A stretch of 64,000 nt of DNA from an uncultured Actinomycetes bacterium (GTDB lineage Bacteria; Actinomycetota; Thermoleophilia; Gaiellales; Gaiellaceae). Below the pieces are notes generated by a model. It had not been told where the DNA came from. It made no database searches and saw only the letters and a program-made list of their open reading frames with translations. The stretch lies in assembly GCA_963734825.1 (NCBI GenBank), contig CAVTIQ010000004.1:28535-92534 (forward strand), read 5' to 3'. Made by a program: the position numbers and the translations under genes. Each line of letters starts with the position of its first letter. Within the stretch, counting starts at the first letter, position 1. Positions 35,451 to 52,820 of the stretch are shown here, one piece after another.

Positions 35451-35476
35451 GCTCTCTCCCTTCGCTCAGAGCTGAA

Positions 35477-35514
35477 GGCCCCGGTCCGCGAGCGAACGCT
35501 CGCGGACCGGGGCC
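35477..35514 (-). terminator. strong hairpin downstream of the amidohydrolase gene
   Basis: Perfect 18-bp stem GGCCCCGGTCCGCGAGCG-AA-CGCTCGCGGACCGGGGCC, 13 nt after the stop at 35528. No U tract. Confidence 0.55.
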
Positions 35515-35527
35515 GAGTACTAGCGAC

Positions 35528-36895: not shown

Positions 36896-37217
36896 GCCAC
36901 TCTCCTTGGCCGGCGGAACATCGAAATCGCGTCAGCGCTCGGGGCGCGCCCGCCTGCGGCAGGCCGCTGCGCGCTGCCGGATGTACAGCGAGCATAAACA
37001 CCCTGGCGTGAACGCGTCAACAGGGTCGTGATCGAGACTTTCCTTGTCGACGGACGGTTTTGCGCCCTGTCGAGCCTCACTTGGGATGGCTTGGACGAGC
37101 GGCACGATCGCGGCGGCGCGTTCGGTCATGGTTGACACTCCTCGTCGGACGTGCTCAGAATGGACTCCTGGTCGCGGCTAGCTCCTCACCGTTCTGCCGC
37201 TCTGGATCGAGTGGTCC

Positions 37218-38283
37218 GTGAGCCCCACGGGTGACACCGACGGCGTGACCATGGGGCGCTCCGCGCAACTGATCGCGAGTGGTCTCGTGGCAGCGCGCTT
37301 CCTGCCGATCTGGCTCGCCATGGGAGCGCTCCTCGTCGTCGCAGCGCTCTTCGCACCCAGCACGCTCGAGAACACGTCGTGGTCCTACATCCTCCCGTTC
37401 GGGACCATCCTCGCGATCGCCGCGCTCGGGCAGATGCTCGTGGTTATGCAGGCGGGCATCGACCTCTCGACCGCCGGCGTGATCTCCCTCTGCGCGAACG
37501 TGCTCGTCGGCGTGAGCGTGGGTTCCAACCATGGTCTGGCGGTGGGAATGCTCGTCTGCGTCGGCCTGGGGGCGCTCGTGGGCCTTGTCAACGGAGTCCT
37601 CGTCGGAATCGTGAGGCTGAATCCACTGATCGTGACGCTGGCTGTCGGGCAGATCGTGCTCGCGTACAGCTCGAAGTACGCGCGCGAGAACACGGTTTCG
37701 TTGCAGGTGCCGGAATCGCTCTCGTCGTGGGCGGCGGAAGAAGCCTCTCGGGATCAGCACCGTCTTCTGGACGGGCGCGGCGATCGCGATCGCCGTCGCG
37801 CTCGCGCTTCGCTACACGACCGCCGGCAGGCGCTTCCAGGCAGTGGGTGCGAACCCGAGAGCTGCGTGGATGGCCGGACTGCGCGTCCGAACACACGTGG
37901 TGTTCGCGTACACGGCGGCGGGCGTTCTCTACGCAGTCGCGGCGATCTTGCTCGCGGCCGTGCGCATCAGCATCGACTCGGGCTTCGGCGCCGCGTATCT
38001 CCTCGCGCCGATCGCCGCAGTTGTCCTCGCGGGCGCTGCGCTCTCGGGTGGACTGGCGAGTGCGACGTCGACCTGGATGGCGGCACTCGCGCTCACGTTC
38101 CTCACGGAGATGCTGCTCATCTTCGGGCTCTCGGCGGCGTTGCAGTTCATCGTGTTCGGCGCAGCAATCATCGTCGGGATGCTGGTTTCGGGGGACCGGG
38201 TAGCGTCTCTTCTCGGCCGCCTCCTTCGTACGATCGAAGCATCGGCTGGAACTCGCCCCAAAGCGGGGGAAAACACGAGCTGA
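37218..38283 (+). pseudogene. ABC sugar-type permease (BPD_transp_2, RbsC/XylH-like) with one +1 frameshift near 37731-37738
   Basis: Track ORFs 37218..38414 (N-half, TM-rich) and 37843..38283 (C-half). The hand-read joining frame gives ...SLSSWA|KKPLGISTVFWTGAAIAIAVALALRYTTAGRRFQAVGANPRAAWMAG. 1066 nt = 1065+1. Confidence 0.8.
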
Positions 38284-38307
38284 GGCAGGCTCACGAAAGG
38301 AGACACG

Positions 38308-39601
38308 ATGGAGGATCGGAAGGAGTCCGGGGGGTCCCGGAAACGCCCAGTGGTCTTGGGCGTGCTAGCGCTTCTCGTGCTCGGAGCCGCGCTCGCGCTC
38401 GTCTCCGCGAGTAGCGGAAGCACCAGCAAGCCACAGACCGCCGCCGCCAAGCCGGTCGTGGTCATCAGCACCGGCAAGGGATTCGGCGAGGTGTACGCGG
38501 CGAAGAGGTCGACGCTCGCGCACACGCTCTTCAAGGCGAAGCTGCTCCCGAAGGACAAGATGTCGCGCAACATCGCGTTGGCCGGGCTCGGCCGTGCGGA
38601 CAGGAAGGTCAACGAGGCGCTGGCGCTCAAGTGCTGGAAGAACAACGGCTGTAGCACCGGGACGGGCGGCAAGCTCACCGTCGCGTATCTCGAGCAGTTC
38701 GGCGAGAACGTCTACCGGCAGATGTCGAAGATGGAGTTCATCCTCCAGGCGCTGACGTATCCGCAGGTCGGCGAGATCATCTACTCGAGCGCTCACAGTG
38801 GACTTCAACGAAGGCGTTCGCCGACTGGAAAGCGGCGATCGCCCAGGGTGTCGACCTGATCGTCACCTATCCGGACTTCGGCGACGCCATGATCCCGGTG
38901 ATGAAGCAGGCGACCGACGCCGGAATCCCCGTTGCGACGTATGCCTGGGGCTACGTCAGCGAGCCCGGCAAGAACTACCTGACGGTCGTCGGTGAGGACA
39001 CCTGCGCGATCGGCAAGACGTGGGCGTACGTCATGAACAACCGGGTCAAGTCCGGAAACATCGCCTTGCTCGGTGGCTTCCCGGGGAATCCGCTCTCGGC
39101 GGGCTGGCAGAAGTGCGAGCCGCCCGCGCTCAGATCGTCGATCGACGTCGTCGCGACGGAGCCCACCAACTGGGATCCCTCGAAGGTGCAGCAGGTCGTG
39201 GCCGGGATCCTCGCGAAGTATCCCGACATCAAGGGCTGGAGCTACGAGTACGGGCTCGGCATGGGCCAGGGCGGGTACGCGGCGTACAAGGCCGCGGGGA
39301 AGCCGTTCAACAGGGCGTCTTCACGTTCCGCACGGACGACGTCGGCATGGGCTGCCTCTTCAACCAGCTCAATGAACCCGAAGCTCGAGATGTACTACAC
39401 AGCTCCTTCAACTCGCATATCCGCGTCGCCTTCACGGCCGCGATGATGAAGCTGAAGGGGGCGAAGATCCCGCCCAAGATCGTGTTCCCGATCGAGCTGC
39501 AGAACCAGCGCGTGCGTGACTCCTGCGTCAAGGGGTATCCGCAGGAGGCATCTGCCACGTCGCTGATTCCGCTCAGCTTGCTCAAGAAGATGTACCCGTA
39601 G
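38308..39601 (+). pseudogene. ABC periplasmic sugar-binding-type lipoprotein/solute-binding protein with at least two (probably four) frameshifts
   Basis: Signal VVLGVLALLVLGAALALVSASSG. Frames run 1, 0, 2: ...GEIIYSSA(H) | QWTSTKAFADWKAAIAQGVDLIVTYPDFGDAMIPVMKQATDAGIPVATYAW... | GVFTFRTDDVGMGCLFNQL...SSFNSHIRVAFTAAMMKLKG... Jumps are at about 38794-38796 and 39312-39314. 1294 nt = 1296-2. Confidence 0.75.
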
Positions 39602-39692
39602 GAAGAACCGGAAACAGAAGAACCCGAACGATGTCGACTCCGGGGCCTGCAGGGGAAGCCACCTTTCCCCTGCGGGCCCTCTTTGGGAAGAC

Positions 39693-41258
39693 GTGGTGAG
39701 CCACGCTCCCGACGAAAGTGGGTCGTCGACCACCACCGTGCTCACTCTGCGCGGCGTGTCCAAGGCGTTCGGCGCGGTACAGGCGCTTCGTGACGTCAGC
39801 GTCGACTGCCGTGCCGGCGAGATCCACGCCCTCGTCGGGGAGAACGGGTCCGGGAAATCGACATTGCTCGGGATAGCCAGCGGGTTCCTCGCTCCCGACG
39901 AGGGCACCGTCGTCGATCGGGCGAGACGGAGCGCCGACGAGTCTCACCCGCCGAGAGCCGGAGGCTCGGTCTCGGCATCGCCTATCAGACCTACTCGCAC
40001 GTGTTGCACCTGTCGGTGGCCGAGAACCTCTACCTCGCGGCACCGTCCGACCTCCGACCGACGTACGGACGCATGGATCGATGGGCGGCCGACCGGCTGG
40101 CCGAGTTCGATCTCGACATCTCGCCGACCGCGCCGACGGGGGCGCTGTCACTCGCGGAGAGACAGCTCCTCGAGGTCGTCAAGGCACTGCTGGCTCAGCC
40201 GAAGGTGCTGCTTCTCGACGAGCCGACGACAGCGCTCGGGCCCGAGGACGTCGACCGACTGCACGCGCTGGTTCACGAGCGGAGCCGCGCCGGCGTCGGG
40301 ATCGTCTACGTCAGCCACCGGCTTCCCGAGGTTCTCGGCATCGCCGATCGGATAAGCGTTCTCCGCGACGGCGTGTGCCAGGGGACGTTCGAGGCGGCCT
40401 CGATGTCGGAGGAGAGCCTCGTCGCTCTGATGATCGGACGTCCACTCCAGCTTGCGTTTCCGCGAGCGACACGACCGCGAGGAGCGACGCGACGTGCTGC
40501 TCACGGTCTCGGGACTACGGGGTGACCGGTTCGGGCCGATCGACCTCGAGGTGGCGAGCGGCGAGATCGTCGGAATCGCGGGCGCGGAGGGTAACGGGCA
40601 GGTCCAGTTCCTCCGAGCGCTCGCCGGCGCGGAGCGGGCCACGGGGACGGCGACCTGCGACGGGAAGCAGCTCGACTCGAGCTCGCCGGTCGGACCACTC
40701 CGCGCCGGAGTCGTGCTGCTGAGCGGCGACCGCGTGTCCGAGTCGCTCTTCCCCGTTCTGAGCGTCCGAGTGAACTCGACGATTCAGGTGCTGCGCCGGC
40801 TCGGAGGCTTCGGGCTCCTCAGTCGCAGACGCGAGCGGCGCGTGGTCGACGACCTCGTGCAGCGCCTCAGCATTCGAACGGCGTCGATCGAGCAGTCGGT
40901 GCAAACGCTCTCGGGCGGAAATCAGCAGAAGGTCTCGCTCACGCGACCGTTCCTGCGCGGTGACGTCAAGGTCATCCTCGCCGAGGAGCCGACGCAGGGC
41001 GTCGACGTCGCCGCACGGTTCGACATCTACGGCGCTTTGCGCGAAAAGGCGAAGGAGGGGGTCGCAACGATCGTCAAGTCGAGCGACCCGCTCGAGCTCG
41101 CCGGCCTCTGCGACCGCGTCGTCGTGATGTCGCGCGGAAAGATCGTCGAGGAGATCCCGGGCGACGAGCTCGGGGAGCGCCGGATCGTCGAAGCGATCGT
41201 GGGCTCGCGGGCCGGTGCCCGAGAGACGGCACCCGAAGGGTCGGACCGGTCGGAGTGA
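39693..41258 (+). pseudogene. ABC sugar-type ATPase with tandem nucleotide-binding domains (RbsA/MglA-like), two frameshifts (-1 near 39915-39917, +1 at 40463)
   Basis: GENGSGKSTL (Walker A) | ...GLGIAYQTYSHVLHLSVAENL...LSLAERQLLEVVKAL...LLLDEPTTAL | ERHDREERRDVLLTVSGL...GAEGNGQ...LSGGNQQKV...ILAEEPTQGVD. Spread over three track ORFs (39693, 40001, 40452). Net length 1566 = 522 codons. Confidence 0.85.
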
Positions 41259-41271
41259 GGATCGTGCGTCG

Positions 41272-42279
41272 ATGAGGCTCGGCAGGTTCAGCGGCGCGTT
41301 GCCGCTCGTCCTGATGACCGTGCTGATCGTCGCCGTCGGTGCCTTTGCGACCGTCCGTCAGGACGCCTTCCTCACGAGCTTCAACCTCAACAACCTGCTC
41401 CTCCTGACTCTGCCGTTGGCATTCGTCTCCCTTGGACAGACGTTCGCCCTCCTCGTCGGCGGATTCGACGTCTCGGTGGCGGCGCTCATGACGTTCTGCG
41501 TCGTCGTCGCGTCCTACACGCTGTCGTACGACACGTCGGGATGGAAGCTGTTTCCCGGAGCCCTGGTGGTCGTCGCGGTGGGACTGGCGACCGGGGTCTT
41601 CAACGCCGTCCTCGTCTGCGTCCTGAAGCTTCCGTCGATCATCGCCACGCTCGGGACGTTCAGCATCCTCGAAGGCGCGTCGCTTCTTCTCCGCGATCAT
41701 CCCGAGGGCCCCATCTCGAGCGACGTCATCAGCGGTCTCACGAAGGACGTCAGCTTCGTCCCGATCGCCTTCATCGTCGTCGTCGTGCTGGCCATCCTCG
41801 GCGACGTGTGCCTCTATCGAACGCGCGCGGGCCTGGCGCTCCGGGCGGTCGGCCTCGACGAGACGTCATCGCGTCGGCTCGGCATGGCAACCGGCCGCAT
41901 GGTGTTCCTCGCCTTCGTCATGTGCTCCGTGATGGCGTCGCTCGCTGGTTTCTTCCTCGCGGCCCAGGTCCAGATCGGCTCGCCGCTCATCGGCAACTTC
42001 GGGCTCGAGAGCATCGCTTGCGCCGTCCTCGGCGGAGCGAGCCTCGCGGGAGGTAGAGGATCCTTCGTCGGGGCGCTGCTGGCGGCGCTCTTCCTCTCGC
42101 TGATCGACAACGTCCTGCCGCTGTTCCACCAGCCGACGGAGTACGCGGAGATAACGATCGGCGCACTGATCCTGCTGGCGCTCGTGCTCTACCAGGGCCC
42201 CGAGCTTCTCGCCCGCCTCCGCACGAGCTGGGGAGGCGTCGGCCGCCTACAGGCCGGCGAGGAGGAAGCGCCGGGCTGA
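41272..42279 (+). CDS. ABC sugar-type permease (BPD_transp_2), intact
   Basis: ATG at 41272 inside track ORF 41215..42279. 335 aa, about 9-10 TM, with GGFDVSVAA and TRAGLALRAVGLDETSSRRLG motifs like the first permease. Confidence 0.8.
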   Translation: MRLGRFSGALPLVLMTVLIVAVGAFATVRQDAFLTSFNLNNLLLLTLPLAFVSLGQTFALLVGGFDVSVAALMTFCVVVASYTLSYDTSGWKLFPGALVVVAVGLATGVFNAVLVCVLKLPSIIATLGTFSILEGASLLLRDHPEGPISSDVISGLTKDVSFVPIAFIVVVVLAILGDVCLYRTRAGLALRAVGLDETSSRRLGMATGRMVFLAFVMCSVMASLAGFFLAAQVQIGSPLIGNFGLESIACAVLGGASLAGGRGSFVGALLAALFLSLIDNVLPLFHQPTEYAEITIGALILLALVLYQGPELLARLRTSWGGVGRLQAGEEEAPG

Positions 42280-42309
42280 CGGAGCTCGCCGGCCGGGACT
42301 TTCGACCGG

Positions 42310-42972
42310 TTAGTCGCCGGCCGGCGACAACCGAGCGGTTCCGGCGCGCGGATCGGCGTCCCTGCCGATGACCACCCAGATCGCATGGACGGGCTCGTCG
42401 CCGATCGCCCACAGCCGGTGCGGCGACGACGAGTCGAACGCGATCGACCCGCCCGGCCCCAGCTCGTACGCCTCGAAGCCGACCTGCACGCCGAGCATCC
42501 CGCTCGTGACGTAGCCGTACTCCTTGCCGCCGTGTGTCGTCAGCGCGTCCTCCGGGCACGACGCGGCTCCCACCGGATAGACGACGTAGAGGAACTCGAC
42601 GTCGCGATCGCTGTCACGGGTCAGCCGTTCCCAGCGTACGCCGGACGCGAGGTTGATCACCTGCCGCGTCTCCGGTCGCTCGGCCAAGCCGCTGCCGACC
42701 TGGGGAGGCACCCGCTCCTCGGTCGGTGAGTCGCCGAAGACATCGCTCATCGTCATGCCGAGCTCGGTGACGAGTGCGTAGAGGGTGCTGACCGACGGAT
42801 TCACGCGGTCGAGCTCGATCTGCGAGACGAGGCTCGGCGAGACTCCGACGCGACGCGCGAGCTCACGAAGTCCGATTCCGCGCCGCTCTCGTTCCGTGCG
42901 GAGGCGGCTGCCGACCTTCGACGCCTCGAAGTTGCGGTCGAGGGGTCCTGAGTGCGGCGCGGGGTCGCTCAT
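42310..42972 (-). CDS. XRE-family HTH regulator with C-terminal cupin domain
   Basis: LRTERERRGIGLRELARRVGVSPSLVSQIELDRVNPSVSTLYALVTELG (HTH_3) plus GKEYGYVTSGMLGV...GGSIAFDSSSPHRLW (cupin_2). Confidence 0.85.
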   Translation of the reverse strand: MSDPAPHSGPLDRNFEASKVGSRLRTERERRGIGLRELARRVGVSPSLVSQIELDRVNPSVSTLYALVTELGMTMSDVFGDSPTEERVPPQVGSGLAERPETRQVINLASGVRWERLTRDSDRDVEFLYVVYPVGAASCPEDALTTHGGKEYGYVTSGMLGVQVGFEAYELGPGGSIAFDSSSPHRLWAIGDEPVHAIWVVIGRDADPRAGTARLSPAGD

Positions 42973-42991
42973 CGAGAGGAGGTCTCCTGCA

Positions 42992-43969
42992 TCACGTTCG
43001 CTCTACCGCAGGCGATGCCGTATCTCCGGTCGCGATCCGGTCCGGCCCCGGCAGGAACGCGTCCTCGAGCGGCGGGCTGTACGGGATGGGCGTGTCAGGT
43101 GTGGCGATGCGCCAGGCGTCGTCGAGGTAGCCGAGCGCGTGCTCCGTGACGGAGGCGAGCACCTCGCCCGCCCAGCCGCCCGTCAGCGGCCCTTCCTCGA
43201 CGACCACGATCCGGCCGGTCTTTCGAACGGAGGTGAGGACGGTCTCGAGGTCGAACGGGCGAAGCGTTCGCAGGTCGATCACCTCGACCGACACTCGATC
43301 CTCCTCGAGGGCGTCCGCCGCCTCGAGGCCGTCGTGGACGCTCTTCATCGCGGCGACGAGCGTGATGTCGCTCCCCTCACGAACCACCGCTGCCTCTCCG
43401 AGTCGGCCGTGCCCGCCGTCGACTTCGCCCTCGAGCGTGTACAGGCGCTTGTGCTCGAAGAAGAGCACCGGGTTGTCGTCGCGGATGGCGGCCTTCAGCA
43501 GCGCCTTCGCGTCGGCCGGCGTGGACGGGCACGCGATCTTGAGCCCTGGCACGCCCATGAACCACGACACGGGCATCTGCGAGTGAATGGCGCCGAAGCG
43601 TCCCCCGGCTCCGACGACGGACCGGACCACGAGCGGGACGCTGACCTGCTCCTGCGTCAGGAACCAGTACTTCGTCGACTGGTTGACGAGGCTGTCCATC
43701 GCGAGCGTGAGGAAGTCGCCGAACATGATCTCGATCACCGGTCGGAGGCCGTGCACAGCCGACCCGAACGCGGCGCCGGCAAGCGCGAGCTCGGAGATCG
43801 GCGTGTCGAAGACTCGCTCGGGGCCGTACTTGTCGTAGAGGCCGGTCGTCGTCGCGAACACGCCGCCCGCAACGGCGACGTCCTCGCCGAAGAGGATCAC
43901 CCGCTCGTCGGCGGCAAGCTCTTCGTCGAGCGCATCGCGGATCGCGGTGCGAAAGGCGAGTGTCGGCAT
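42992..43969 (-). CDS. 2-oxoacid (pyruvate/acetoin/branched-chain) dehydrogenase E1 component, beta subunit
   Basis: AIRDALDEELAADERVILFGEDV...GVFATTTGLYDKYGPERVFDTPISE...EIMFGDF. 325 aa. Confidence 0.9.
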   Translation of the reverse strand: MPTLAFRTAIRDALDEELAADERVILFGEDVAVAGGVFATTTGLYDKYGPERVFDTPISELALAGAAFGSAVHGLRPVIEIMFGDFLTLAMDSLVNQSTKYWFLTQEQVSVPLVVRSVVGAGGRFGAIHSQMPVSWFMGVPGLKIACPSTPADAKALLKAAIRDDNPVLFFEHKRLYTLEGEVDGGHGRLGEAAVVREGSDITLVAAMKSVHDGLEAADALEEDRVSVEVIDLRTLRPFDLETVLTSVRKTGRIVVVEEGPLTGGWAGEVLASVTEHALGYLDDAWRIATPDTPIPYSPPLEDAFLPGPDRIATGDTASPAVERT

Positions 43970-43987
43970 GTCAGTTTCCTCGTTTCA

Positions 43988-45172
43988 TCACAGGAGCAAC
44001 AGCGGTCGCTCCAGCAACTCGCGTAGCCGGGACAGGAACTCCGCACCGTGGGCGCCGTAGACGACCCGGTGATCGCAGGTGAGGTTGACGGTCATGAGGT
44101 CGCGGAAGCTGAAGCCGTCGGTGCCGTCTTCGAACGGCGCGCGCCGCGCCGCGCCGACGGCGAGAATCGCGACCTGGGGTAGGTCGATGATCGCGGTGAA
44201 CGAGCGGACGCCGAGCATGCCGAGATTCGAGACCGTGAACGTGCCGTGCTGCAGGTCCTCCGGGCCGAGCGATCGACGACGTGCGGCCTCGGCGAGGCGT
44301 CTCGTGTCCGCGGCGATCTCGGCCAGCGACTTCTCATCCGCGTCCGAGACGACGGGCACGAGCAACGCGTCGTCCGTGGCAACGGCGATCCCGACGTTGA
44401 TGCGTGAGTAGCACTCGATCTTGCCGTCGACCCACGAGGCGTTGAACCGGGGGAACTCGCGCAGCGTTCTGGCCGCCGCCTTCACCACGAAGTCGTTGAG
44501 CGACGGGCCGCTGTCGCCCTCGGTGCGTGCCCCGCGCCGCAACGCGGCGATGAGCGACACATCGATGTCGGCCGAAACCGTGAAGCACGGAACCGTGGTC
44601 GCCGACTCGACCATCCGGCGCGCGATCGTCGATTGCGTCGTCGACAGCTCGACGATGCGGACGTCGCCTCTCCCGGTCGTCGTACCGTGCGGCGCGCTCG
44701 CGTCACCAGTGGATGCAGCTCTCGTCACGTCGTCACCTGTGATGCGGCCGCCGGGGCCAGTTCCGGTGATGCCGTGCAGCGAGACGCCGAGCTCGACCGC
44801 AGTCCGCTTCGCCACCGGCGTCGCGTTGGGGCGTTGTACGGGTGATCCGTCGCCGGAGGAGGGCGGCGGAGCTGGGGGGGTGACGGGGCGTAGTTCCGGC
44901 ACTTCGCGCGGCGGCTCGCTGCTCGCAGCGCGCTCGCCATTGGCCAGGGTCGCGATCGGATCGCCGACCGCCACGGTGGCTCCCTCCGGGACGAGGATCG
45001 AAGCGAGGGTGCCGGCCAGCTCGGCTTCGTAGACGACGGTCGCCTTGTCGGTCTCCACCTCGATCAGGCCGTCGCCCCGCTCGAAGGCATCGCCGGGCGA
45101 CTTCAGCCAGCGGATGATGACCGCGTCGGCCATCGAGTCGGACAGCTTCGGCATCGTCAGCTCATGGGCCAT
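43988..45172 (-). CDS. dihydrolipoamide acyltransferase (E2) of a 2-oxoacid dehydrogenase complex
   Basis: Lipoyl domain MPKLSDSMADAVIIRWL...EVETDKATV, subunit-binding domain ATPVAKRTAVELGVSLHGITGTGPGGRITGDDV, and catalytic LTCDHRVVYGAHGAEFL. Confidence 0.9.
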   Translation of the reverse strand: MAHELTMPKLSDSMADAVIIRWLKSPGDAFERGDGLIEVETDKATVVYEAELAGTLASILVPEGATVAVGDPIATLANGERAASSEPPREVPELRPVTPPAPPPSSGDGSPVQRPNATPVAKRTAVELGVSLHGITGTGPGGRITGDDVTRAASTGDASAPHGTTTGRGDVRIVELSTTQSTIARRMVESATTVPCFTVSADIDVSLIAALRRGARTEGDSGPSLNDFVVKAAARTLREFPRFNASWVDGKIECYSRINVGIAVATDDALLVPVVSDADEKSLAEIAADTRRLAEAARRRSLGPEDLQHGTFTVSNLGMLGVRSFTAIIDLPQVAILAVGAARRAPFEDGTDGFSFRDLMTVNLTCDHRVVYGAHGAEFLSRLRELLERPLLLL

Positions 45173-45179
45173 GACGGCG

Positions 45180-46160
45180 TCAGTCCTTGAACTCGCGAGA
45201 CGTCAGCTTGCTCGGGAACGGTGCCGCGAGGCCGCTCGCGCGCATTCGATCGAGCTCCCGTGTCATCTCACTCTCGAGCTCGTCGAGGTCCGCGGCGACG
45301 ACGCCCTCCGCCTCGAGCTGCGCGCGGAGGACGACGATCGGGTCCCGCGCGCGCCATTGCTCGAGCTCGCCTTCGGGTCGATATGCGCCGGGGTCGCTGC
45401 GCGAGTGTCCGACGAAGCGGTAGGTGATCGCCTCGAGGAACACCGGTCCGTCTCCCGCACGGGCATGGGCCACCGCTCGCTCGGCCGCCGCACGCACGGT
45501 CCACACGCTCATCCCGTCGATCGTCTCGGCGGGCACACCCATGACCTCCGCGCGCGCGCAGATCTCACCCGCGGTCACAGAGCGGTACGGCGTGTACTCG
45601 CCGTAGCCGTTGTTCTCGCAGACGAGGACGAGCGGCAGCTTGAAGACCTGACAGAAGTTGAGGCACTCGAAGACGTACCCCTGGTTCATCGTCCCGTCGC
45701 CGAAGTACGCGACCGCGACGCCGCCCGTGGTTCGCTTCAGCGCGAGGGCCGCTCCCGTCGCCGCCGCGATGCTCCCACCGACGATTCCGAACGAACCGAT
45801 GAGCCGATCGCCGGGCGAGTTCACGTTCATCGAGCCTGCGCGCCCGCCGTTGATACCGGACTCACGCCCGAGCATCTCGTCGAGCAGCGCCTGCGGGTCC
45901 ACACCGAGTGCCAGTGCGTGACCGTGCCCCCGATAGGTCGCCGCCACACGGTCGCGCTCTTCGAGGATGCTCGCGACACCGGTCGCGATCGCCTCCTGCC
46001 CGGAGTACAGATGCGTCGTTCCGTAGACCTCCCCCGCCAGGAAGAGCGACTGGACGAGCTCCTCGAAGCCGCGGATGAGGAGCATCTGCCGGTAGATCCG
46101 CGTGTACAGCTCGAGGTCGTCGAGGACTCCCGTTGCCGGCTGTTCCCTCACGACGTTCAT
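45180..46160 (-). CDS. 2-oxoacid dehydrogenase E1 component, alpha subunit (ThDP-binding)
   Basis: ATG at 46160 inside track ORF 45180..46982. YRQMLLIRGFEE...YRGHGHAL...GIVGG...YFGDGTMNQGYVFECLNF...VCENNGYG (GDG-X-NN ThDP motif). The upstream extension in the track is Arg/Pro-rich junk. Confidence 0.9.
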   Translation of the reverse strand: MNVVREQPATGVLDDLELYTRIYRQMLLIRGFEELVQSLFLAGEVYGTTHLYSGQEAIATGVASILEERDRVAATYRGHGHALALGVDPQALLDEMLGRESGINGGRAGSMNVNSPGDRLIGSFGIVGGSIAAATGAALALKRTTGGVAVAYFGDGTMNQGYVFECLNFCQVFKLPLVLVCENNGYGEYTPYRSVTAGEICARAEVMGVPAETIDGMSVWTVRAAAERAVAHARAGDGPVFLEAITYRFVGHSRSDPGAYRPEGELEQWRARDPIVVLRAQLEAEGVVAADLDELESEMTRELDRMRASGLAAPFPSKLTSREFKD

Positions 46161-47101
46161 CCGACACCTGCGTTCGACTCGGAGGCCAGGCGCTCGGCGA
46201 GGTAGCTCCAGTCTCGCTCGTGACGGTACGAGTGGCGCGGAGGAGGCCCGGGCGCCGAGGTCTCGAGCCACCGCACCGTCCGTCCCTCCGTCTCGTAGAA
46301 GGCATGCACGCAACCGGTTCCGGTCCAGAAGGCGTCGCCGGGCCGGAGCGTGTACCGGTCTCCGTCCGCGACGACGTCGACCTCGCCCTCGAGCATGTAG
46401 TAGGACTCCTCGAACGGGTGGTCGTGAGGGTTGGCGCAGGCTCTCGGCTGGTAGTCGACCATGAACATCGTGTGGAGCTGCGCATCCAGGCGCTGGTCGA
46501 CGAGCATCTTCACGGCGATCCCGCTGTAGGCGAGAACGGCGGTCGCCATGCTCCCCGACACCGTCGGCGCACCCATCGCCTGGCCGCTCTTCAGGCGATC
46601 GAGGTCCGTCTCGCCTTCGGTCAGCAGGAAGAGGTTGTGGTTGCGCGGGTCGCGCGCGTCGAGCTCGGCGGCGGAACCATTCGGCGCCGGTCCCAGGAAG
46701 AACGTGTCGCTTGCGTCGACGCGCGGCCGCGGCGAGGCCATCTCGATCCACAGCGCGCTCTCGGTGGAGCGAAACGCATGGGGCGTTCCCACGGGTATCG
46801 CGCCGCACGCGCCGGGCCGGAGCCTCACGCCGCGCCCTTCCAGGTAGAGCACCGGCTCGCCCTCGAGCACGTAGAAGCTCGTCTCGAAGGAGTGCAGGTG
46901 CTCGTCGACATGGCCGTCGACGAGCGAGACCAGCGTCAGCGCCATGTGCGTCGAGCCGAGCGTGCCGTCGACGAGCCGGCACGCCGTCAAGCCGCTCGAG
47001 CGGCCGGGCAGGGCGTCGGCGAGCTCGATGTCCTCGCGCCGGACGAGGCGATATCCCGGCCGCCCGTCCGCGAGCTCGCGGGTTCCCGTGTCGCCGGTCA
47101 C
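46157..47101 (-). CDS. bicupin protein (two metal-type cupin barrels), function unknown
   Basis: GTG 47101 (GTGA overlap with the M24 stop). Cupin 1 is GHVDEHLHSFETSFYVLEGE...GAIPVGTPHAF. Cupin 2 is NPHDHPFEESYYMLEGEV...TGTGCVHAF. The stop overlaps the E1alpha ATG (ATGA). Confidence 0.75.
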   Translation of the reverse strand: MTGDTGTRELADGRPGYRLVRREDIELADALPGRSSGLTACRLVDGTLGSTHMALTLVSLVDGHVDEHLHSFETSFYVLEGEPVLYLEGRGVRLRPGACGAIPVGTPHAFRSTESALWIEMASPRPRVDASDTFFLGPAPNGSAAELDARDPRNHNLFLLTEGETDLDRLKSGQAMGAPTVSGSMATAVLAYSGIAVKMLVDQRLDAQLHTMFMVDYQPRACANPHDHPFEESYYMLEGEVDVVADGDRYTLRPGDAFWTGTGCVHAFYETEGRTVRWLETSAPGPPPRHSYRHERDWSYLAERLASESNAGVG

Positions 47102-48465
47102 CGCGGTACGGCCGCCGGCTCGACGACGGCGGAAGATGCGACGGCCGCCGCGAGACCCGGAGTGCCGTCGCGCTTGCCGTCGTCGGGCTCCTTGATGAGA
47201 TCGGCGCCGCGCACGTACTGGCGGCCTGCGACCAGCAGCTCGTCGGCCGGGAAGCGCGTGATCACATCGCAGCCGGTCGCCGTCACGACGACCTCTTCCT
47301 CGATTCGCGCCGCCGACCGGCCGTCCGTCGCGGCGCAGTACGTCTCGAGGGCGAAGACCATTCCTTCCTCGAGCGCGACCGGGTGCTCGAGGGAGTGGAC
47401 GCGCGAGATCATCGGAGACTCGTAGAGCCCCACGCCGATCCCGTGCCCGAACTGGAGGCCGAAGCAGGTCTCCTCGTCCGGGAAGCCGAGCTCCGCGGCG
47501 GTCGGCCACACCTCCGCGATCTTGTCCGTCGTCATGCCCGGCCGAACGAGCCCGATCGCCGCGTCGAGCCATTCGCGGCACTGCTTGTAGGCATCGAGCT
47601 GCGCGTGGCTGACGCCACCCACGTTGAACGTGCGGTAGTAGCACGTTCGGTAGCCCATGAACGAGTGGATGATGTCGAAGAACGCCTGGTCTCCCGGCCG
47701 CAGCAGCCGGTCGGAGAAGACGTGGGGATGCGGGTTGCAGCGGTCGCCCGAGACGGCGTTGACCGCCTCCACCTGCTCCGAGCCCATCTCGAACAGAAGC
47801 TGATGCGCGCGGGCCACGATCTCGTGCTCGTAGACGCCGGGCCGCAGCATCCGGTAGATCTCCTCGTAGACCGCGTCGACGAGCCCGGCGGACTGGTCGA
47901 GAAGCGTGATCTCCTGGTCGGTCTTGATCTTGCGTGCCTCGAGGAGCACCTGGGATCCGTCTGTGATCTGCACTCCGGCGCGTTGCAGCGCCTCGATCGT
48001 GACGAGGTCCGCCATGTCGATTCCGAGCGGCTCGTCCTGGAGGCCGGCCTCGCGCAGCTCGTGCGCGATCTTCGCACCGAGCCGGTCCGGGACCCCGGTC
48101 TCGACGGGCATCGCGCCGCGCATCGGCGAGACGCCGGCGCGGAAGTTCTCCGGCGGGAGCCAGGGCGCGAACAGCTGGTGGTGGCGGGCGGCGGACCCGA
48201 AGTCCCAGAGGATCGGGTCAGCACCGCGCATCAGCAGCGTGAAACGCGCGTTCTTGTCCCGCGCCCACTCGCCGATGTGCGTGCTCGTGACATAGCGGAT
48301 GTTGTTCGGGTCGAAGAGGAGCACCGCCCCGAGGTCCGAGGCCTCGAGGGACGCTTTGGCTCGGTCGAGACGCTCCTGGCGCAGTCGCGGGAAGTCGATA
48401 CGTTGCTCCCAGTCCACTGCGCGCGTCGCGTCGGGGGAGCCGACGGTCCTGCTTCGCGTGGTCAC
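47098..48465 (-). CDS. M24-family metallohydrolase (creatinase/Xaa-Pro peptidase fold with creatinase-type N-domain)
   Basis: AGGAGG then 7 nt then GTG 48465. LLFDPNNIRYVTS (creatinase_N), then the pita-bread motifs FFDIIHSF.GY..., GHGIGVGLYESP, MVFALETY, IEEEVVVT. Confidence 0.8.
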   Translation of the reverse strand: MTTRSRTVGSPDATRAVDWEQRIDFPRLRQERLDRAKASLEASDLGAVLLFDPNNIRYVTSTHIGEWARDKNARFTLLMRGADPILWDFGSAARHHQLFAPWLPPENFRAGVSPMRGAMPVETGVPDRLGAKIAHELREAGLQDEPLGIDMADLVTIEALQRAGVQITDGSQVLLEARKIKTDQEITLLDQSAGLVDAVYEEIYRMLRPGVYEHEIVARAHQLLFEMGSEQVEAVNAVSGDRCNPHPHVFSDRLLRPGDQAFFDIIHSFMGYRTCYYRTFNVGGVSHAQLDAYKQCREWLDAAIGLVRPGMTTDKIAEVWPTAAELGFPDEETCFGLQFGHGIGVGLYESPMISRVHSLEHPVALEEGMVFALETYCAATDGRSAARIEEEVVVTATGCDVITRFPADELLVAGRQYVRGADLIKEPDDGKRDGTPGLAAAVASSAVVEPAAVPR

Positions 48466-49409
48466 CGCACTACCTCCTGATCGGGATGCTCGCTCACAGT
48501 CGAAAGCGGCGTCGCGGTCGTGTCGAGGCCGCACGTGCTTCGCAGATACCGGAAGAGCGCGATGAAGTCGTCGTCGGCGTACCCGGCATCGGAAGCAGCT
48601 CGAAGGTAGGTCTTCAGCTCTCGCGCCATCGGTAGCTCGACGCCGGCTTCGTCGGCCGCGTCGAGCACGAGATCGATGTCCTTCTCCATCAGGGCTGTCG
48701 TGAACGTCGCGGAGAAGTCGTCGCGAAGGAGAGCCTCGGTCTTGTACTTCACGAAGGGCGCCCCGGCGGCGGAGCTCCCCATTACTTCGAGAAGCGCGGC
48801 CCGGGACACGCCGGCGGTCTCACCGAGGACGAGCGCCTCGGACATCATCTGCGCGAGCGCCGCGATCATGAGGTTGATCGCGAGCTTCACGATGCGCGCC
48901 TGCTCTTCGTCCCCGACGTGATGGATGGTCGGGCCGATCGCACGGAGCACGGGCTCGACATCCTCGAGCGTGGAGCGCTCACCGGAGACGATGAAGCTCA
49001 GGTTCCCGGCGCGCACGACGCTCGGATTACCGCTGACGGGTGCGCGCAGGTAGCGAACCGACGCCGTCTCGGCAAGCGAGGCAGTGCGCCCCGAGGCGCC
49101 GGGCGAGACGGTGCTCGTGTCGACGAGCACGATGCCTGGCCGAGCGGCTGCGATGACCCGCGCGGTCACGTCCTCGAACGCCTCGTCGTTCGCGAGCGAG
49201 GTGATGACCACGTCGACCTGCTGGACGAGCTCCTCCGGCGTCGTCGCGACGACGGCGCCGCGGGCCTCGAGAGCCTCTGCCTTCTCCGGTGTCCGGTTGC
49301 TGACCACGAGCGGGTAGCCGGCGTCGAGGAGGCGCTCTGCAATCGCGGTGCCCATGTTGCCGAGACCGATCAACCCCACGGCGAGACGCGGGTCGGGAGA
49401 AGCGCGCAC
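48462..49409 (-). CDS. NAD(P)-dependent 3-hydroxyisobutyrate/6-phosphogluconate-dehydrogenase-like oxidoreductase
   Basis: VGLIGLGNMGTAIAERL (GxGxxG)...VSNRT...VDTSTVSP...APVSG...KLAINL. The start may be a few codons inside the track ATG. Confidence 0.85.
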   Translation of the reverse strand: MRASPDPRLAVGLIGLGNMGTAIAERLLDAGYPLVVSNRTPEKAEALEARGAVVATTPEELVQQVDVVITSLANDEAFEDVTARVIAAARPGIVLVDTSTVSPGASGRTASLAETASVRYLRAPVSGNPSVVRAGNLSFIVSGERSTLEDVEPVLRAIGPTIHHVGDEEQARIVKLAINLMIAALAQMMSEALVLGETAGVSRAALLEVMGSSAAGAPFVKYKTEALLRDDFSATFTTALMEKDIDLVLDAADEAGVELPMARELKTYLRAASDAGYADDDFIALFRYLRSTCGLDTTATPLSTVSEHPDQEVVR

Positions 49410-49595
49410 TGTCCAGTATGAATAAACGAAGGCCGGCGGCTGGTCAAGCCGAAGCGATGCAACGCAGCCCTCGGGTCATGGTGTTACGGCGCCGCTCTGT
49501 ACAGCCAGACGACACGGCCGCCCCTGGTGGCGTTTCCGTCCCCGCTCGTAAGTTCGGACGCGATCCCCCCGTCGCGGTCGCTCGAGAAGCACCTT

Positions 49596-50627: not shown

Positions 50628-52820
<2,193 letters not shown>

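What the first reader, a model, noticed from the sequence alone, without database searches (positions are those of the whole stretch)
42310..49409. Intact, tightly coupled seven-gene operon joining an M24 hydrolase and a bicupin to a 2-oxoacid dehydrogenase with atypical E1alpha-E2-E1beta order and no E3
On the minus strand the genes run: HIBDH-like dehydrogenase, M24 creatinase-fold hydrolase, bicupin, E1alpha, E2, E1beta, XRE-cupin regulator.

The junctions are GTGA (48462-48465), GTGA (47098-47101), ATGA (46157-46160), then gaps of 7, 18 and 19 nt, so the genes look co-translated.

Several things are unusual:
- E2 is inserted between the two E1 subunits. The common order is E1alpha-E1beta-E2.
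- No lipoamide dehydrogenase is present.
- The complex is combined with a metal bicupin (EHLHSFE and HDHPFEE sites) and an M24 enzyme.
- The regulator is encoded last rather than divergently.

In a neighbourhood full of pseudogenes this 7.1-kb block has no lesion, which implies active selection. It looks like a catabolic pathway for an N-substituted or amidino/osmolyte-type compound: hydrolysis by M24, conversion by the cupin, oxidative decarboxylation of the resulting 2-oxoacid, and reduction or oxidation of a 3-hydroxyacid. I cannot name the substrate.
Basis: partly seen in the sequence, partly recalled or inferred. Interest (0 to 1): 0.6.

Follow-up and report, generated by a model that had tools for sequence, protein, structure and literature searches.

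The report
Conserved M24–thiamine-enzyme catabolic operon, substrate unknown
The seven genes are real and belong to a larger, widely conserved but uncharacterised breakdown pathway of abundant soil bacteria, in which an unusual hydrolase-fold enzyme is repeatedly paired with a thiamine-dependent carbon-carbon cleaving enzyme; its substrate is still unknown.

Summary
The seven minus-strand genes, their GTGA/GTGA/ATGA overlaps and their 7, 18 and 19 nt gaps are confirmed. The genome is a Gaiellaceae (Thermoleophilia) assembly.

The association is conserved. Of 80 Gaiellaceae loci, 53 have the same E1alpha-E2-E1beta order, 12 have a lipoyl domain fused to E1beta with no E2 core, and 7 have no E1/E2. 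Orthologues 55-62% identical occur in other Actinomycetota and on Roseobacter and Streptomyces plasmids. There the M24 gene again sits beside E1alpha/beta or a split transketolase.

The real unit is about 14.7 kb. It also includes a sugar-type ABC importer, a deaminase-type amidohydrolase and an SDR.

The M24 enzyme is neither DddP nor a standard peptidase. Its second metal-binding Asp is an invariant Cys, and DddP's catalytic residues are absent.

The missing E3 is trivial, because lpd lies in a canonical complex elsewhere. The "intact among pseudogenes" argument fails. The assembly carries indel errors (rpoB is frameshifted), and the E1beta 3' end is itself frameshifted.

The substrate remains unknown. 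First readers of this scan noted the same module in at least eight other genomes.

Verdict: an uncharacterised, ecologically widespread catabolic module, of moderate to high interest.

The parts
49497..49504 (.). Palindrome CTGTACAG, within the conserved GCTGTACA motif upstream of the operon. Candidate operator.
   Evidence: GCTGTACA(G/N) is found in 66 of 74 aligned upstream regions of Gaiellaceae loci.
49410..49429 (-). Conserved AT-rich box TCGTTTATTCATACTGGACA that abuts the GTG start of the first gene. Likely the -10 region and operator of a leaderless transcript. A TTGAC motif lies about 20 nt upstream.
   Evidence: The box occurs with at most 3 mismatches in 69 of 74 loci, ending 0-1 nt before the start codon. 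It occurs only once in the 3.5 Mb genome.
48462..49409 (-). Beta-hydroxyacid dehydrogenase (HIBDH/GarR family), 315 aa. First gene of the operon.
   Evidence: Pfam NAD_binding_2 plus NAD_binding_11. The best NCBIfam matches are 2-hydroxy-3-oxopropionate reductase (180 bits) and HIBADH (162 bits), both below cut-off. The catalytic Lys-x-x-x-Asn (KLAIN) is visible in the sequence. The gene lies next to or near M24 in many taxa.
47098..48465 (-). M24 pita-bread-fold enzyme with a creatinase-type N-terminal domain, 455 aa. Metal ligands are D264, C275, H341, E374 and E389.
   Evidence: Pfam Peptidase_M24 at 121 bits. DddP scores 114 bits against a cut-off of 600. The PDB gives full-length matches only to DddP 4b28 and 4s01. 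Cys275 is invariant in 23 orthologues and present in 22 of 27 distant homologues. Identity is 80-94% across Gaiellaceae.
46157..47101 (-). Bicupin, 314 aa. Both domains carry a 3-His/1-Glu type metal motif.
   Evidence: Pfam Cupin_2, two copies. AlphaFold model with pLDDT 71. The nearest Foldseek hits are YxaG quercetinase (TM 0.65), ureidoglycine aminohydrolase and the YlbA type, at 15-19% identity.
45180..46160 (-). TPP-dependent E1 alpha subunit of the PDH/acetoin ('y') type, 326 aa.
   Evidence: Pfam E1_dh at 212 bits. TIGR03182 scores 302 bits, below the 394 cut-off. The nearest PDB entry is human PDHA1. The GDG..NN and YRFVGHSRSD motifs are present.
43988..45172 (-). E2 acyltransferase (lipoyl domain, E3-binding domain, catalytic domain), 394 aa, placed between E1alpha and E1beta. 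The catalytic motif is DHRVVYG.
   Evidence: Pfam Biotin_lipoyl, E3_binding and 2-oxoacid_dh. Tyr replaces the canonical Asp of DHRxxDG in 53 of 53 Gaiellaceae orthologues. The genome's own paralogues keep DHRxxDG.
42992..43969 (-). E1 beta subunit, 325 aa as read. The 3' end is frameshifted by a +1 nt insertion near 43027.
   Evidence: Pfam Transket_pyr plus Transketolase_C. PRK09212 scores 313 bits against a cut-off of 321. The conserved C-terminus ...EIRRRLR* of 14 orthologues lies in another frame in the window.
42310..42972 (-). XRE-family HTH plus cupin regulator (PuuR-like architecture), 220 aa. Last gene of the operon.
   Evidence: Pfam HTH_3/HTH_31 plus Cupin_2. Conserved at 75-89% in Gaiellaceae loci and at 45-56% next to the cluster in other families.
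42286..42327 (.). GC-rich inverted repeat (11 nt arms, 20 nt loop) between the convergent operons. Possible bidirectional terminator.
   Evidence: the repeat finder. Function not tested.
41215..42279 (+). ABC importer permease 2 (BPD_transp_2), convergent with the operon.
   Evidence: Pfam. Conserved in 63 of 80 Gaiellaceae loci, including those without E1/E2.
39693..41258 (+). ABC importer ATPase with tandem nucleotide-binding domains. In this assembly it is split by frame breaks near 39918 and 40435-40465.
   Evidence: Pfam ABC_tran on both pieces. Indels relative to L009. The gene is intact (510-563 aa) in relatives L014, L036, L037, L041 and L062.
38308..39446 (+). Substrate-binding protein (Peripla_BP_4, CUT2 type, with a long N-terminal extension). 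Split by frame breaks in this assembly.
   Evidence: Pfam. Intact (424-497 aa) in relatives. PDB matches are weak and only to CUT2 sugar-binding proteins.
37218..38414 (+). ABC importer permease 1, with a frame break near 37721.
   Evidence: 44-54% identical to permease 1 of L148, in two pieces. Frame break from the detector.
35528..36931 (-). Deaminase-type amidohydrolase (COG0402-like, NCBIfam NF006056/PRK08204), 467 aa.
   Evidence: NF006056 scores 586 bits, above the 391 cut-off. The next best matches are 5'-deoxyadenosine deaminase, chlorohydrolase and 8-oxoguanine deaminase. It is 46% identical to the in-operon amidohydrolase of L148.
34755..35465 (-). Short-chain dehydrogenase/reductase, 236 aa.
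   Evidence: 58% identical to the SDR that lies between the bicupin and HIBDH genes in L148. NCBIfam PRK07041 scores 146 bits, below cut-off.

Best explanation
This is a dedicated, substrate-inducible catabolic gene cluster of about 14.7 kb for an imported small polar compound that I cannot yet name.

Proposed sequence of events:
1. A CUT2-type ABC system imports the compound.
2. A deaminase-type amidohydrolase and the Cys-containing M24 enzyme cleave C-N (or similar carbon-heteroatom) bonds in a substrate that is not a peptide.
3. The bicupin, the SDR and the beta-hydroxyacid dehydrogenase convert the product into a 2-oxo acid or 2-ketol.
4. The TPP-dependent E1alpha/beta cleaves the C-C bond next to that carbonyl.
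5. In Gaiellaceae the cluster's own E2 captures the acyl group on lipoate and releases it as acyl-CoA. Lipoate is re-oxidised by the E3 encoded in the canonical complex elsewhere in the genome.
6. The XRE-cupin protein, encoded last, probably senses the substrate or an intermediate. It would act at the conserved box that overlaps the leaderless start of the first gene.

Shown: gene content, gene order, the conservation and modular variation of the cluster, the atypical M24 and E2 active-site motifs, the E3 elsewhere, and the conserved promoter box.

Inferred: the direction and order of the reactions, C-N cleavage by M24, regulation at the box, and sharing of E3.
For: - **Conservation of order.** Of 80 Gaiellaceae loci, 53 are type a (E1alpha-E2-E1beta), 12 type b, 7 type c and 8 uninformative. 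The same convergent ABC importer is present in about 63 of them.
- **The set recurs after rearrangement.** M24 (55-62% identity), E1alpha/beta, bicupin, HIBDH, SDR, amidohydrolases, XRE-cupin and the four-gene importer recur in other Actinomycetota families. In L148 twelve of them lie on one strand, with the XRE-cupin gene divergent upstream.
- **M24 sits beside a TPP enzyme.** This holds in 16 of 20 loci fetched from other families (14 with E1alpha/beta, 2 more with a split transketolase). With about 7 E1alpha copies per 3.5 Mb genome, chance would give roughly 2%.
- **Plasmid versions.** Phaeobacter carries SDR-M24-E1alpha-E1beta-lipoyl protein-ALDH-E2 core-LpdA. Streptomyces carries HIBDH-M24-ALDH-VOC-E1alpha/beta fusion-E2.
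- **M24 active site.** D-C-H-E-E with an invariant Cys.
- **E2 motif.** DHRVVYG is specific to the cluster's E2.
- **E3.** lpd lies at C3:597011-598378, next to a canonical E1/E2 set.
- **Promoter.** A unique conserved box abuts the GTG start in 69 of 74 loci.
Against: - No enzyme of the cluster reaches an equivalog cut-off, except the 'hypothetical' amidohydrolase subfamily, so no reaction is assigned.
- The M24-linked E1 genes do not form one resolved clade. At least three or four lineages appear, plus transketolase. Either different TPP enzymes were recruited or the deep branches are unresolved.
- Many orthologous clusters lack E2. Seven Gaiellaceae loci lack E1/E2 altogether, so the E1/E2 step is accessory rather than core.
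- Four M24 orthologues of one family (L149-L152) have unrelated neighbours.
- There is no expression evidence for a single transcript.
Confidence: 0.7

Rival explanations
1. The TPP module works like acetoin dehydrogenase or transketolase. It would cleave a 2-ketol, or hydroxypyruvate-like C3 unit, derived from a sugar-like or cyclitol-like substrate, rather than decarboxylating an ordinary 2-oxo acid. The products would be an acyl- or glycolyl-lipoate plus an aldehyde, and the HIBDH-type reductase or a GabD-like aldehyde dehydrogenase would handle the aldehyde. This refines the best explanation; it does not exclude it.
For: - In two genomes a second M24 copy lies next to a split transketolase instead of E1alpha/beta (L137, L155).
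- A GabD-like aldehyde dehydrogenase (56-64% identical between Phaeobacter and Actinobacteria) follows E1beta directly in L139, L143 and L154, and lies in the cluster in L157 and L160; L121 carries one too.
- The transporters are sugar-type (CUT2), and LacI regulators recur.
- E1alpha is of the PDH/acetoin 'y' type.
- It is established knowledge that transketolase takes ketoses and hydroxypyruvate as donors.
Against: - No kinase, isomerase or aldolase typical of sugar pathways is present.
- The amidohydrolases and the M24 enzyme have no obvious role on a plain sugar.
- The bicupin shows no KduI/IolB match.
- The aldehyde dehydrogenase is absent from the Gaiellaceae cluster.
Confidence: 0.35
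2. This is a non-orthologous analogue of ureide or amidine catabolism, with allantoin-regulon logic.
- The amidohydrolase(s) and an M24 amidinohydrolase would strip nitrogen from an N-rich heterocycle or guanidino compound.
- The bicupin would act like ureidoglycine aminohydrolase.
- The resulting glyoxylate or C3 oxo acid would be handled by a TPP enzyme plus a tartronate-semialdehyde-reductase-like HIBDH.
For: - The best NCBIfam hits of the HIBDH-like protein are 2-hydroxy-3-oxopropionate reductases.
- The bicupin's structural neighbours include ureidoglycine aminohydrolase, the 'glyoxylate-induced protein' and YlbA.
- The amidohydrolase belongs to the guanine/8-oxoguanine/cytosine deaminase clade.
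- Creatinase and ectoine hydrolase, both M24-fold enzymes, cleave amidine or guanidine C-N bonds (established knowledge).
- Haloferax places its M24 homologue beside hydantoinase A/B, a TPP protein and a cupin.
Against: - All similarities are far below family cut-offs.
- No urease, allophanate hydrolase or glycerate kinase is seen in the cluster.
- E1-type enzymes are not known glyoxylate carboligases.
- The binding protein is of the sugar type.
Confidence: 0.2
3. M24 is an amidase for N-(2-hydroxyacyl) amides such as pantothenate, that is, the orphan enzyme pantothenase. The HIBDH-type enzyme and the aldehyde dehydrogenase would oxidise the released hydroxy acid. E1/E2 would decarboxylate the resulting 2-oxo acid, as in the classical Pseudomonas pantothenate route that ends in 2-oxoisovalerate.
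For: - M24 and HIBDH are tightly paired, with overlapping stop and start codons, in several taxa.
- A succinate-semialdehyde-type aldehyde dehydrogenase lies in several clusters.
- One marine homologue is flanked by an isocitrate/tartrate-dehydrogenase-family gene.
- The gene for pantothenase was still unknown in 2023 (PMC10393543).
- M24 aminopeptidases bind the alpha-substituent of the N-terminal acyl group at the metal centre (established knowledge).
Against: - The Gaiellaceae cluster has no aldehyde dehydrogenase or dimethylmalate dehydrogenase.
- The bicupin, SDR, deaminase-type amidohydrolases and sugar-type importer are left unexplained.
- E1alpha is of the PDH type, not the BCKDH type.
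Confidence: 0.08
4. This is an ordinary pyruvate, acetoin or branched-chain 2-oxoacid dehydrogenase operon, and the M24, bicupin and HIBDH neighbours are incidental.
For: - The E1alpha, E1beta and E2 scores lie close to the PDH-family models.
- The genome has several paralogous complexes.
Against: - The neighbourhood is conserved across families, phyla and plasmids despite rearrangement.
- All three subunits score below the equivalog cut-offs.
- The E2 carries an atypical DHRVVYG motif.
- A canonical complex with E3 exists elsewhere in the genome.
Confidence: 0.04

Closest known systems
DddP, the DMSP lyase of the M24 fold (PDB 4b28, 4rzy/4s01)
   Same: It is the only solved structure that matches the M24 protein over its full length, including the N-terminal domain, and it is the best NCBIfam hit. 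Both are M24-fold proteins that are not peptidases by context.
   Different: - The score is 114 bits against a cut-off of 600.
- DddP's invariant metal ligand Asp307 is Cys275 here, and Asp297 is Ile.
- The proposed catalytic residues Asp377 and Tyr366 are Tyr348 (variable: H, W or Y) and Phe335 here (PMC4108388).
- The gene context has no DMSP or acrylate genes.
Creatinase and ectoine hydrolase DoeA (M24-fold amidino/amidine hydrolases)
   Same: They share the two-domain creatinase/prolidase architecture. They act on small substrates that are not peptides and lie in catabolic operons.
   Different: Similarity is very weak (DoeA 34 bits in the PDB search and 54-66 bits in NCBIfam, against cut-offs of 575-613). 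None of the partner genes of those pathways (DoeB/C/D, sarcosine oxidase) is present.
Acetoin dehydrogenase (AcoABCL) and PDH complexes of the alphaproteobacterial/mitochondrial type
   Same: - The E1 is a heterotetramer type with the 'y'-type alpha subunit, and the E2 carries lipoyl, E3-binding and catalytic domains.
- The type b variant (lipoyl domain fused to E1beta) mirrors alphaproteobacterial PdhB (NCBIfam PRK11892; the lipoyl part scores 61 bits and the E1beta part 296 bits).
   Different: - The gene order is E1alpha-E2-E1beta and there is no E3 in the operon.
- The E2 motif is DHRVVYG instead of DHRxxDG.
- All scores fall below the equivalog cut-offs.
- The genes are embedded in an M24/bicupin/HIBDH operon.
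- In relatives the E2 is optional or is split.
Allantoin/glyoxylate regulon of E. coli (AllB amidohydrolase, AllC metallohydrolase, AllE/YlbA bicupin, Gcl TPP enzyme, GlxR HIBDH-family reductase)
   Same: The same five kinds of protein fold are combined in one catabolic unit. The bicupin's structural neighbours include AllE-type proteins, and the best hits of the HIBDH-like protein are GlxR/GarR models.
   Different: No component is orthologous. The metallohydrolase is M24 rather than M20, the TPP enzyme is an E1 rather than Gcl, and the amidohydrolase is of the deaminase type rather than the allantoinase type. The resemblance is one of logic only and has not been tested.

Membership tests
DddP DMSP lyase (NCBIfam NF043017) | Whole-protein score above the curated cut-off of 600 bits | tested here: not met
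   The score is 114.4 bits. The orthologue in L148 scores 120 bits.
DddP DMSP lyase (NCBIfam NF043017) | Invariant metal ligands Asp295, Asp297, Asp307, His371, Glu406 and Glu421 (PMC4108388) | tested here: not met
   In the alignment to 4b28, the residues are D264, I266, C275, H341, E374 and E389. The Cys is invariant in the family.
DddP DMSP lyase (NCBIfam NF043017) | Invariant putative catalytic residues Tyr366 and Asp377 (PMC4108388) | tested here: not met
   The aligned residues are Phe335 and Tyr348. Position 348 varies (Y, H or W) among orthologues.
Canonical M24 peptidases (prolidase, aminopeptidase P, methionine aminopeptidase) | Five metal ligands D, D, H, E, E | tested here: not met
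   The second Asp is Cys275 in all 23 orthologues and in 22 of 27 distant homologues.
Canonical M24 peptidases (prolidase, aminopeptidase P, methionine aminopeptidase) | Pita-bread catalytic domain (Pfam PF00557) | tested here: met
   121.5 bits against a cut-off of 23, covering profile positions 3-208 of 208.
Pyruvate dehydrogenase complex, heterotetrameric E1 type | E1alpha, E1beta and E2 reach the NCBIfam equivalog or subfamily cut-offs | tested here: not met
   E1alpha scores 302 bits (cut-off 394), E1beta 313 (cut-off 321) and E2 325 (cut-off 445).
Pyruvate dehydrogenase complex, heterotetrameric E1 type | TPP-binding GDG..NN motif and the YR..GHS..D loop in E1alpha; a lipoyl-lysine (DKA) in E2 | tested here: met
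   GDGTMN...CENN and YRFVGHSRSD are present. ETDKAT is present in E2.
Pyruvate dehydrogenase complex, heterotetrameric E1 type | Canonical E2 catalytic motif DHRxxDG | tested here: not met
   The motif is DHRVVYG here and in 53 of 53 Gaiellaceae orthologues. The genome's own paralogues have DHRxxDG.
Pyruvate dehydrogenase complex, heterotetrameric E1 type | Dedicated or shared dihydrolipoyl dehydrogenase (E3) available | tested here: met
   There is none in the operon. An lpd gene at G000:C3:597011-598378 scores 492 bits (cut-off 409), next to an E2 gene and an E1alpha gene.
Acetoin dehydrogenase (AcoABCL) | Activity on acetoin, and co-occurrence with butanediol dehydrogenase and AcoR/AcoX | not testable with these tools
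   The libraries returned no AcoA/AcoB-specific model among the hits. An SDR is nearby, but its BudC score is only 69 bits.
3-hydroxyisobutyrate / tartronate-semialdehyde reductase family | Two-domain NAD_binding_2 plus NAD_binding_11 fold with the catalytic Lys | tested here: met
   Pfam scores of 139 and 84 bits. The K-x-x-x-N motif (KLAIN) is read directly from the translation.
3-hydroxyisobutyrate / tartronate-semialdehyde reductase family | Equivalog score for a named substrate (GarR/GlxR, HIBADH, LtnD, YihU) | tested here: not met
   The scores are 180, 162, 138 and 123 bits, against cut-offs of 291-397.
(S)-ureidoglycine aminohydrolase / YlbA bicupins | Sequence-model score above cut-off | tested here: not met
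   About 20 bits against cut-offs of 200-445. The resemblance is in fold only (TM 0.63 on the query and 0.76 on the target, 15% identity).

The most novel reading that the evidence does not exclude
The Cys-containing M24 family may be the signature enzyme of a catabolic pathway that has not yet been described. It is widespread in dominant soil Actinobacteria (Gaiellaceae, Streptomyces, Rhodococcus), on plasmids of marine Roseobacters and in haloarchaea. In this reading, an amide, amidine or sulfonium-type bond is broken by an M24 enzyme that is not a peptidase, and the product passes directly to a TPP-dependent C-C cleaving enzyme (E1alpha/beta, split transketolase or an ALS-like enzyme, recruited independently). 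The M24 enzyme could then be a long-orphaned activity such as pantothenase, or a new amidinohydrolase or lyase.
Probability: 0.45. Interest if true: 0.8.

Novelty: new variant of a known kind. Interest (0 to 1): 0.6.

Why it matters
- **Abundance.** Gaiellaceae are common in the soil metagenomes that dominate the hits. The M24 protein of this cluster is very strongly conserved (80-94% identity across many species). It is so frequent in metagenomes that a search for relatives saturated at 8000 hits.
- **Recurrence.** The same module recurs in cultured, genetically tractable bacteria such as Phaeobacter inhibens, Tritonibacter, Streptomyces, Rhodococcus opacus, Paenarthrobacter and Haloferax volcanii. 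The unknown substrate can therefore be found by experiment.
- **Possible gains.** Identifying the substrate would:
  - assign a function to an M24 subfamily with an unprecedented Asp-to-Cys metal ligand;
  - explain why 'orphan' E1alpha/beta pairs without E2/E3 are so common next to it;
  - possibly close an orphan-enzyme gap.
- **Evolution of the complex.** The Gaiellaceae variants (full E2 between the E1 genes, a lipoyl-E1beta fusion, or no E1/E2) form a natural series for studying how 2-oxoacid dehydrogenase modules are built and lost.

Tried and rejected
- **M24 structure.** The AlphaFold model built from 18 close homologues failed (pLDDT 42, pTM 0.34), so I made no fold comparison. More diverse sequences could not be handed to that tool.
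- **Bicupin structure.** Foldseek returned only generic bicupins at 15-19% identity, so no function follows.
- **Reads and RNA.** I could therefore not test whether the frameshifts in the importer and in E1beta are assembly errors, or whether the operon is one transcript.
- **Literature.** Searches for DddP homologues in Actinobacteria, PRK08204, Phaeobacter plasmid genes and pantothenase found no description of this cluster. One search was rejected for a term that was too short.
- **E1 phylogeny.** The trees did not resolve whether the M24-linked E1 genes are monophyletic. The Phaeobacter and Streptomyces sequences sit on long branches.
- **Ideas considered and set aside.** I rejected DMSP lyase because the active-site residues are missing. 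I also dropped an imine-reductase role for the HIBDH-like protein because its catalytic Lys is present. Two further ideas were set aside:
  - sulfonate catabolism, because TauE or LLM/flavin reductase neighbours appear in only one to two loci each;
  - an IolB-like role for the bicupin, because there is no KduI/IolB match.
- **Promoter and terminator scan.** The consensus scan was uninformative for this high-GC genome.

Full report
**1. Observation**

The window has about 68% GC. It lies in a 3.5 Mb, 10-contig genome whose closest relatives are Gaiellaceae/Thermoleophilia metagenome-assembled genomes.

ORF listing and direct reading of the minus strand confirm seven co-directional genes:

| Gene | Coordinates | Length |
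|---|---|---|
| HIBDH-like | 49409-48462 | 315 aa |
| M24 | 48465-47098 | 455 aa |
| bicupin | 47101-46157 | 314 aa |
| E1alpha | 46160-45180 | 326 aa |
| E2 | 45172-43988 | 394 aa |
| E1beta | 43969-42992 | 325 aa |
| XRE-cupin | 42972-42310 | 220 aa |

- No protein reaches an equivalog cut-off. M24 scores best against DddP (114 bits, cut-off 600). E1alpha scores 302 (cut-off 394), E1beta 313 (cut-off 321) and E2 325 (cut-off 445). The best HIBDH-like hit is 2-hydroxy-3-oxopropionate reductase (180 bits, cut-off 397).

**2. The block is not lesion-free, and the 'pseudogene neighbourhood' is doubtful**

- Relative to its closest relative (L009), the window has a +1 nt insertion near 43027.
- All 14 orthologues examined end E1beta with ...RIA-EIRRRLR*. 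In the window that ending (EIRHRLR*) lies in another frame, and the protein ends ...TGDTASPAVERT*.
- rpoB, which is essential, is split by a 1-nt frame change in this assembly. rpoC, secA, ileS and uvrA are intact.
- A crude codon-position detector finds about 350 frame breaks genome-wide, roughly 1 per 10 kb on every large contig. It finds 10 in the window, 4 of them in the ABC importer.
- At these rates a clean 7 kb stretch is expected about one time in three. Intactness therefore says nothing about selection.
- The importer genes are intact in five relatives. The cluster of breaks in the window's importer exceeds the genome average and could be real decay or a local assembly problem.

**3. 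Conservation within Gaiellaceae**

- A scan of species-representative genomes found more than 560 relatives of the M24 protein. The 80 loci kept are 80-94% identical to it.
- tblastn of all seven proteins against these loci shows the same order in most of them.
- A domain-level classification gives:

| Type | Architecture | Loci |
|---|---|---|
| a | E1alpha-E2-E1beta | 53 |
| b | lipoyl domain fused in frame to the N-terminus of E1beta; no E3-binding or catalytic domain | 12 |
| c | bicupin followed directly by the regulator; no E1/E2 | 7 |
| – | truncated contigs | 6 |
| – | other | 2 |

- The convergent ABC importer (permease 1, binding protein, ATPase, permease 2) is present in about 63 loci, including types b and c. 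The window's upstream HAD, MFS and TetR genes are not conserved.
- The E1alpha-E2-E1beta order is therefore real and lineage-typical. Type b has the architecture of alphaproteobacterial PdhB. Types a and b differ by the presence of the E2 core between the lipoyl domain and E1beta.
- The cluster's E2 carries DHRVVYG in place of the canonical DHRxxDG in 53 of 53 orthologues. The genome's three other E2 genes are canonical.

**4. Conservation beyond Gaiellaceae, and the true extent of the unit**

- In an even sample of 400 Actinomycetota genomes, 73 have an M24 homologue at E <= 1e-30. About 58 matches in some 52 genomes are 54-62% identical.
- I fetched 20 such loci with 9 kb flanks. Fourteen have E1alpha/beta within 5 kb of M24, usually immediately downstream and without E2. 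Two more have a split transketolase immediately upstream of M24. Four, all from one family, have unrelated neighbours.
- Loci of one family (for example L148) place twelve genes on one strand: amidohydrolase, permease 1, binding protein, ATPase, permease 2, amidohydrolase, M24, E1alpha, E1beta, bicupin, SDR and HIBDH. An XRE-cupin gene lies nearby.
- The window has the same extra parts next to its importer. An amidohydrolase lies at 35528-36931 (NF006056, 586 bits, above cut-off; 46% identical to that of L148). An SDR lies at 34755-35465 (58% identical). The conserved unit in the window therefore spans about 34755-49429.
- A GabD-like aldehyde dehydrogenase follows E1beta directly in L139, L143 and L154. 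It also lies in the Phaeobacter and Streptomyces clusters, and L121 carries one.
- Plasmid records give annotated, cultured carriers:
  - Phaeobacter inhibens pP92_e carries SDR-M24-E1alpha-E1beta-(two-lipoyl protein)-ALDH-(E2 core)-LpdA. A sugar ABC system and an HIBDH-like gene lie alongside.
  - Streptomyces sp. YIM 121038 carries HIBDH-M24-ALDH-VOC-(E1alpha/beta fusion)-(E2 without a lipoyl domain).
- Haloferax volcanii pHV4 has a 34% identical homologue with the same GYRSCYYR motif. It lies a few kb from an ALS-type TPP protein, an NAD(P) oxidoreductase, a cupin and hydantoinase A/B. This is suggestive only.
- With about seven E1alpha paralogues per genome, chance adjacency would be about 2%. 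The M24-TPP enzyme linkage is far beyond chance.

**5. What the E1 trees say**

- Trees combined the M24-linked E1alpha and E1beta sequences with the genome's own paralogues.
- They show a well-supported Thermoleophilia clade and a second clade from the other Actinomycetota families sampled.
- The Phaeobacter sequence sits on a long branch. The Streptomyces fusion groups with the E1 genes of L141 and L142, which also lie about 3 kb from M24.
- The deep nodes are unresolved, so a single origin is neither shown nor excluded.
- Both actinobacterial clades, including the versions without E2, keep the YR..GHS..D loop and the GDG..CENN motif.

**6. The M24 enzyme**

- Only DddP structures match it over its full length.
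- It fails every DddP-defining feature reported by Hehemann et al. (PMC4108388): Asp307 is Cys275, Asp297 is Ile266, Tyr366 is Phe335 and Asp377 is Tyr348.
- Cys275 is invariant in 23 orthologues and present in 22 of 27 homologues at 32-45% identity.
- It also departs from true peptidases, which have D, D, H, E, E.
- It is therefore a distinct M24 subfamily with a D-C-H-E-E site. By analogy with creatinase, DoeA and DddP, it most likely acts on a small substrate that is not a peptide. That last step is inference.

**7. Other points**

- E3 is not missing from the organism. A bona fide lpd (492 bits) lies beside an E2 gene and an E1alpha gene on contig C3. Sharing of E3 between complexes is established biology.
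- The first gene is preceded by a conserved box, TCGTTTATTCATACTGGACA. It ends at the GTG start in 69 of 74 loci and occurs once in the genome. A TTGAC motif lies about 20 nt upstream and a GCTGTACA motif about 90 nt upstream. This fits a leaderless transcript and an operator for the regulator encoded last. Function was not tested.
- The bicupin model (pLDDT 71) resembles quercetinase YxaG and ureidoglycine aminohydrolase/YlbA only at fold level.

**8. Interpretation**

- The evidence supports a dedicated catabolic pathway whose invariant core is the M24(Cys) enzyme. Its usual partners are a beta-hydroxyacid dehydrogenase and a TPP-dependent C-C cleaving enzyme.
- Accessory parts vary: E2, a lipoyl fusion, an aldehyde dehydrogenase, the bicupin, the SDR, amidohydrolases, and sugar-type or Liv-type importers.
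- I cannot name the substrate. Three sub-hypotheses are listed as rivals with low to moderate confidence: a ketol or hydroxypyruvate-type intermediate from a sugar-like compound; ureide or amidine catabolism with allantoin-like logic; and an N-(2-hydroxyacyl) amide such as pantothenate, whose hydrolase gene was still unknown in 2023.
- The 'ordinary PDH with incidental neighbours' reading is contradicted.

**9. Relation to earlier notes of this scan**

A sequence look-up shows that first readers noted the same motif and module in at least eight other genomes. Their notes describe Cys at the second Asp, orphan E1alpha/beta next to M24, and M24 plus HIBADH pairs around lacI. None was followed up. 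My own alignments and locus comparisons reach the same observations independently.

Noticed in passing
G000:C6:563700-563960 (outside the window): The essential gene rpoB is split by a single-base frame change (…EPVDPED / TGKFLHEQV…). This shows that the assembly contains indel errors, so pseudogene calls anywhere in this genome need read support.
   Followed up: partly
window 37218-41258: The ABC importer carries at least 4 frame breaks in about 4 kb. That is well above the genome average of about 1 per 10 kb, and the same genes are intact in five relatives. This is either real decay of the importer or a locally poor assembly.
   Followed up: partly
L030, L035, L039, L055, L064, L066, L085-L087 (about 13.1-14.6 kb in each locus): In 12 Gaiellaceae loci the lipoyl domain is fused in frame to E1beta and the E2 core is absent. 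These loci are paraphyletic on the E1 trees. The likely history is either repeated in-frame loss of the E2 core or its insertion into a PdhB-like fusion.
   Followed up: partly
L137 7057-10332; L155 8934-12345: Two genomes (G067, G164) each hold two copies of the M24 gene. One copy lies next to E1alpha/beta and an aldehyde dehydrogenase. The other lies next to a split transketolase (N- and C-terminal subunits) and, in L137, HIBDH and LacI.
   Followed up: partly
L157 15271-18892 (Phaeobacter inhibens pP92_e); L160 15371-18389 (Streptomyces sp. YIM 121038): The E2 architecture is unusual in both M24-linked plasmid systems. Phaeobacter has a separate protein with two lipoyl domains plus a catalytic-domain-only E2, with an aldehyde dehydrogenase gene between them. 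Streptomyces has a fused E1alpha/beta and an E2 that lacks a lipoyl domain.
   Followed up: no
L011 13294-14491: The E2 gene of this relative (a long-contig MAG) is split into two frames. This is another sign that such assemblies carry indel errors.
   Followed up: no
window 50628-52173: The MFS transporter upstream of the operon is read as two overlapping ORFs (N-terminal and C-terminal halves). The detector places a frame break near 50849. The gene is not part of the conserved cluster.
   Followed up: no
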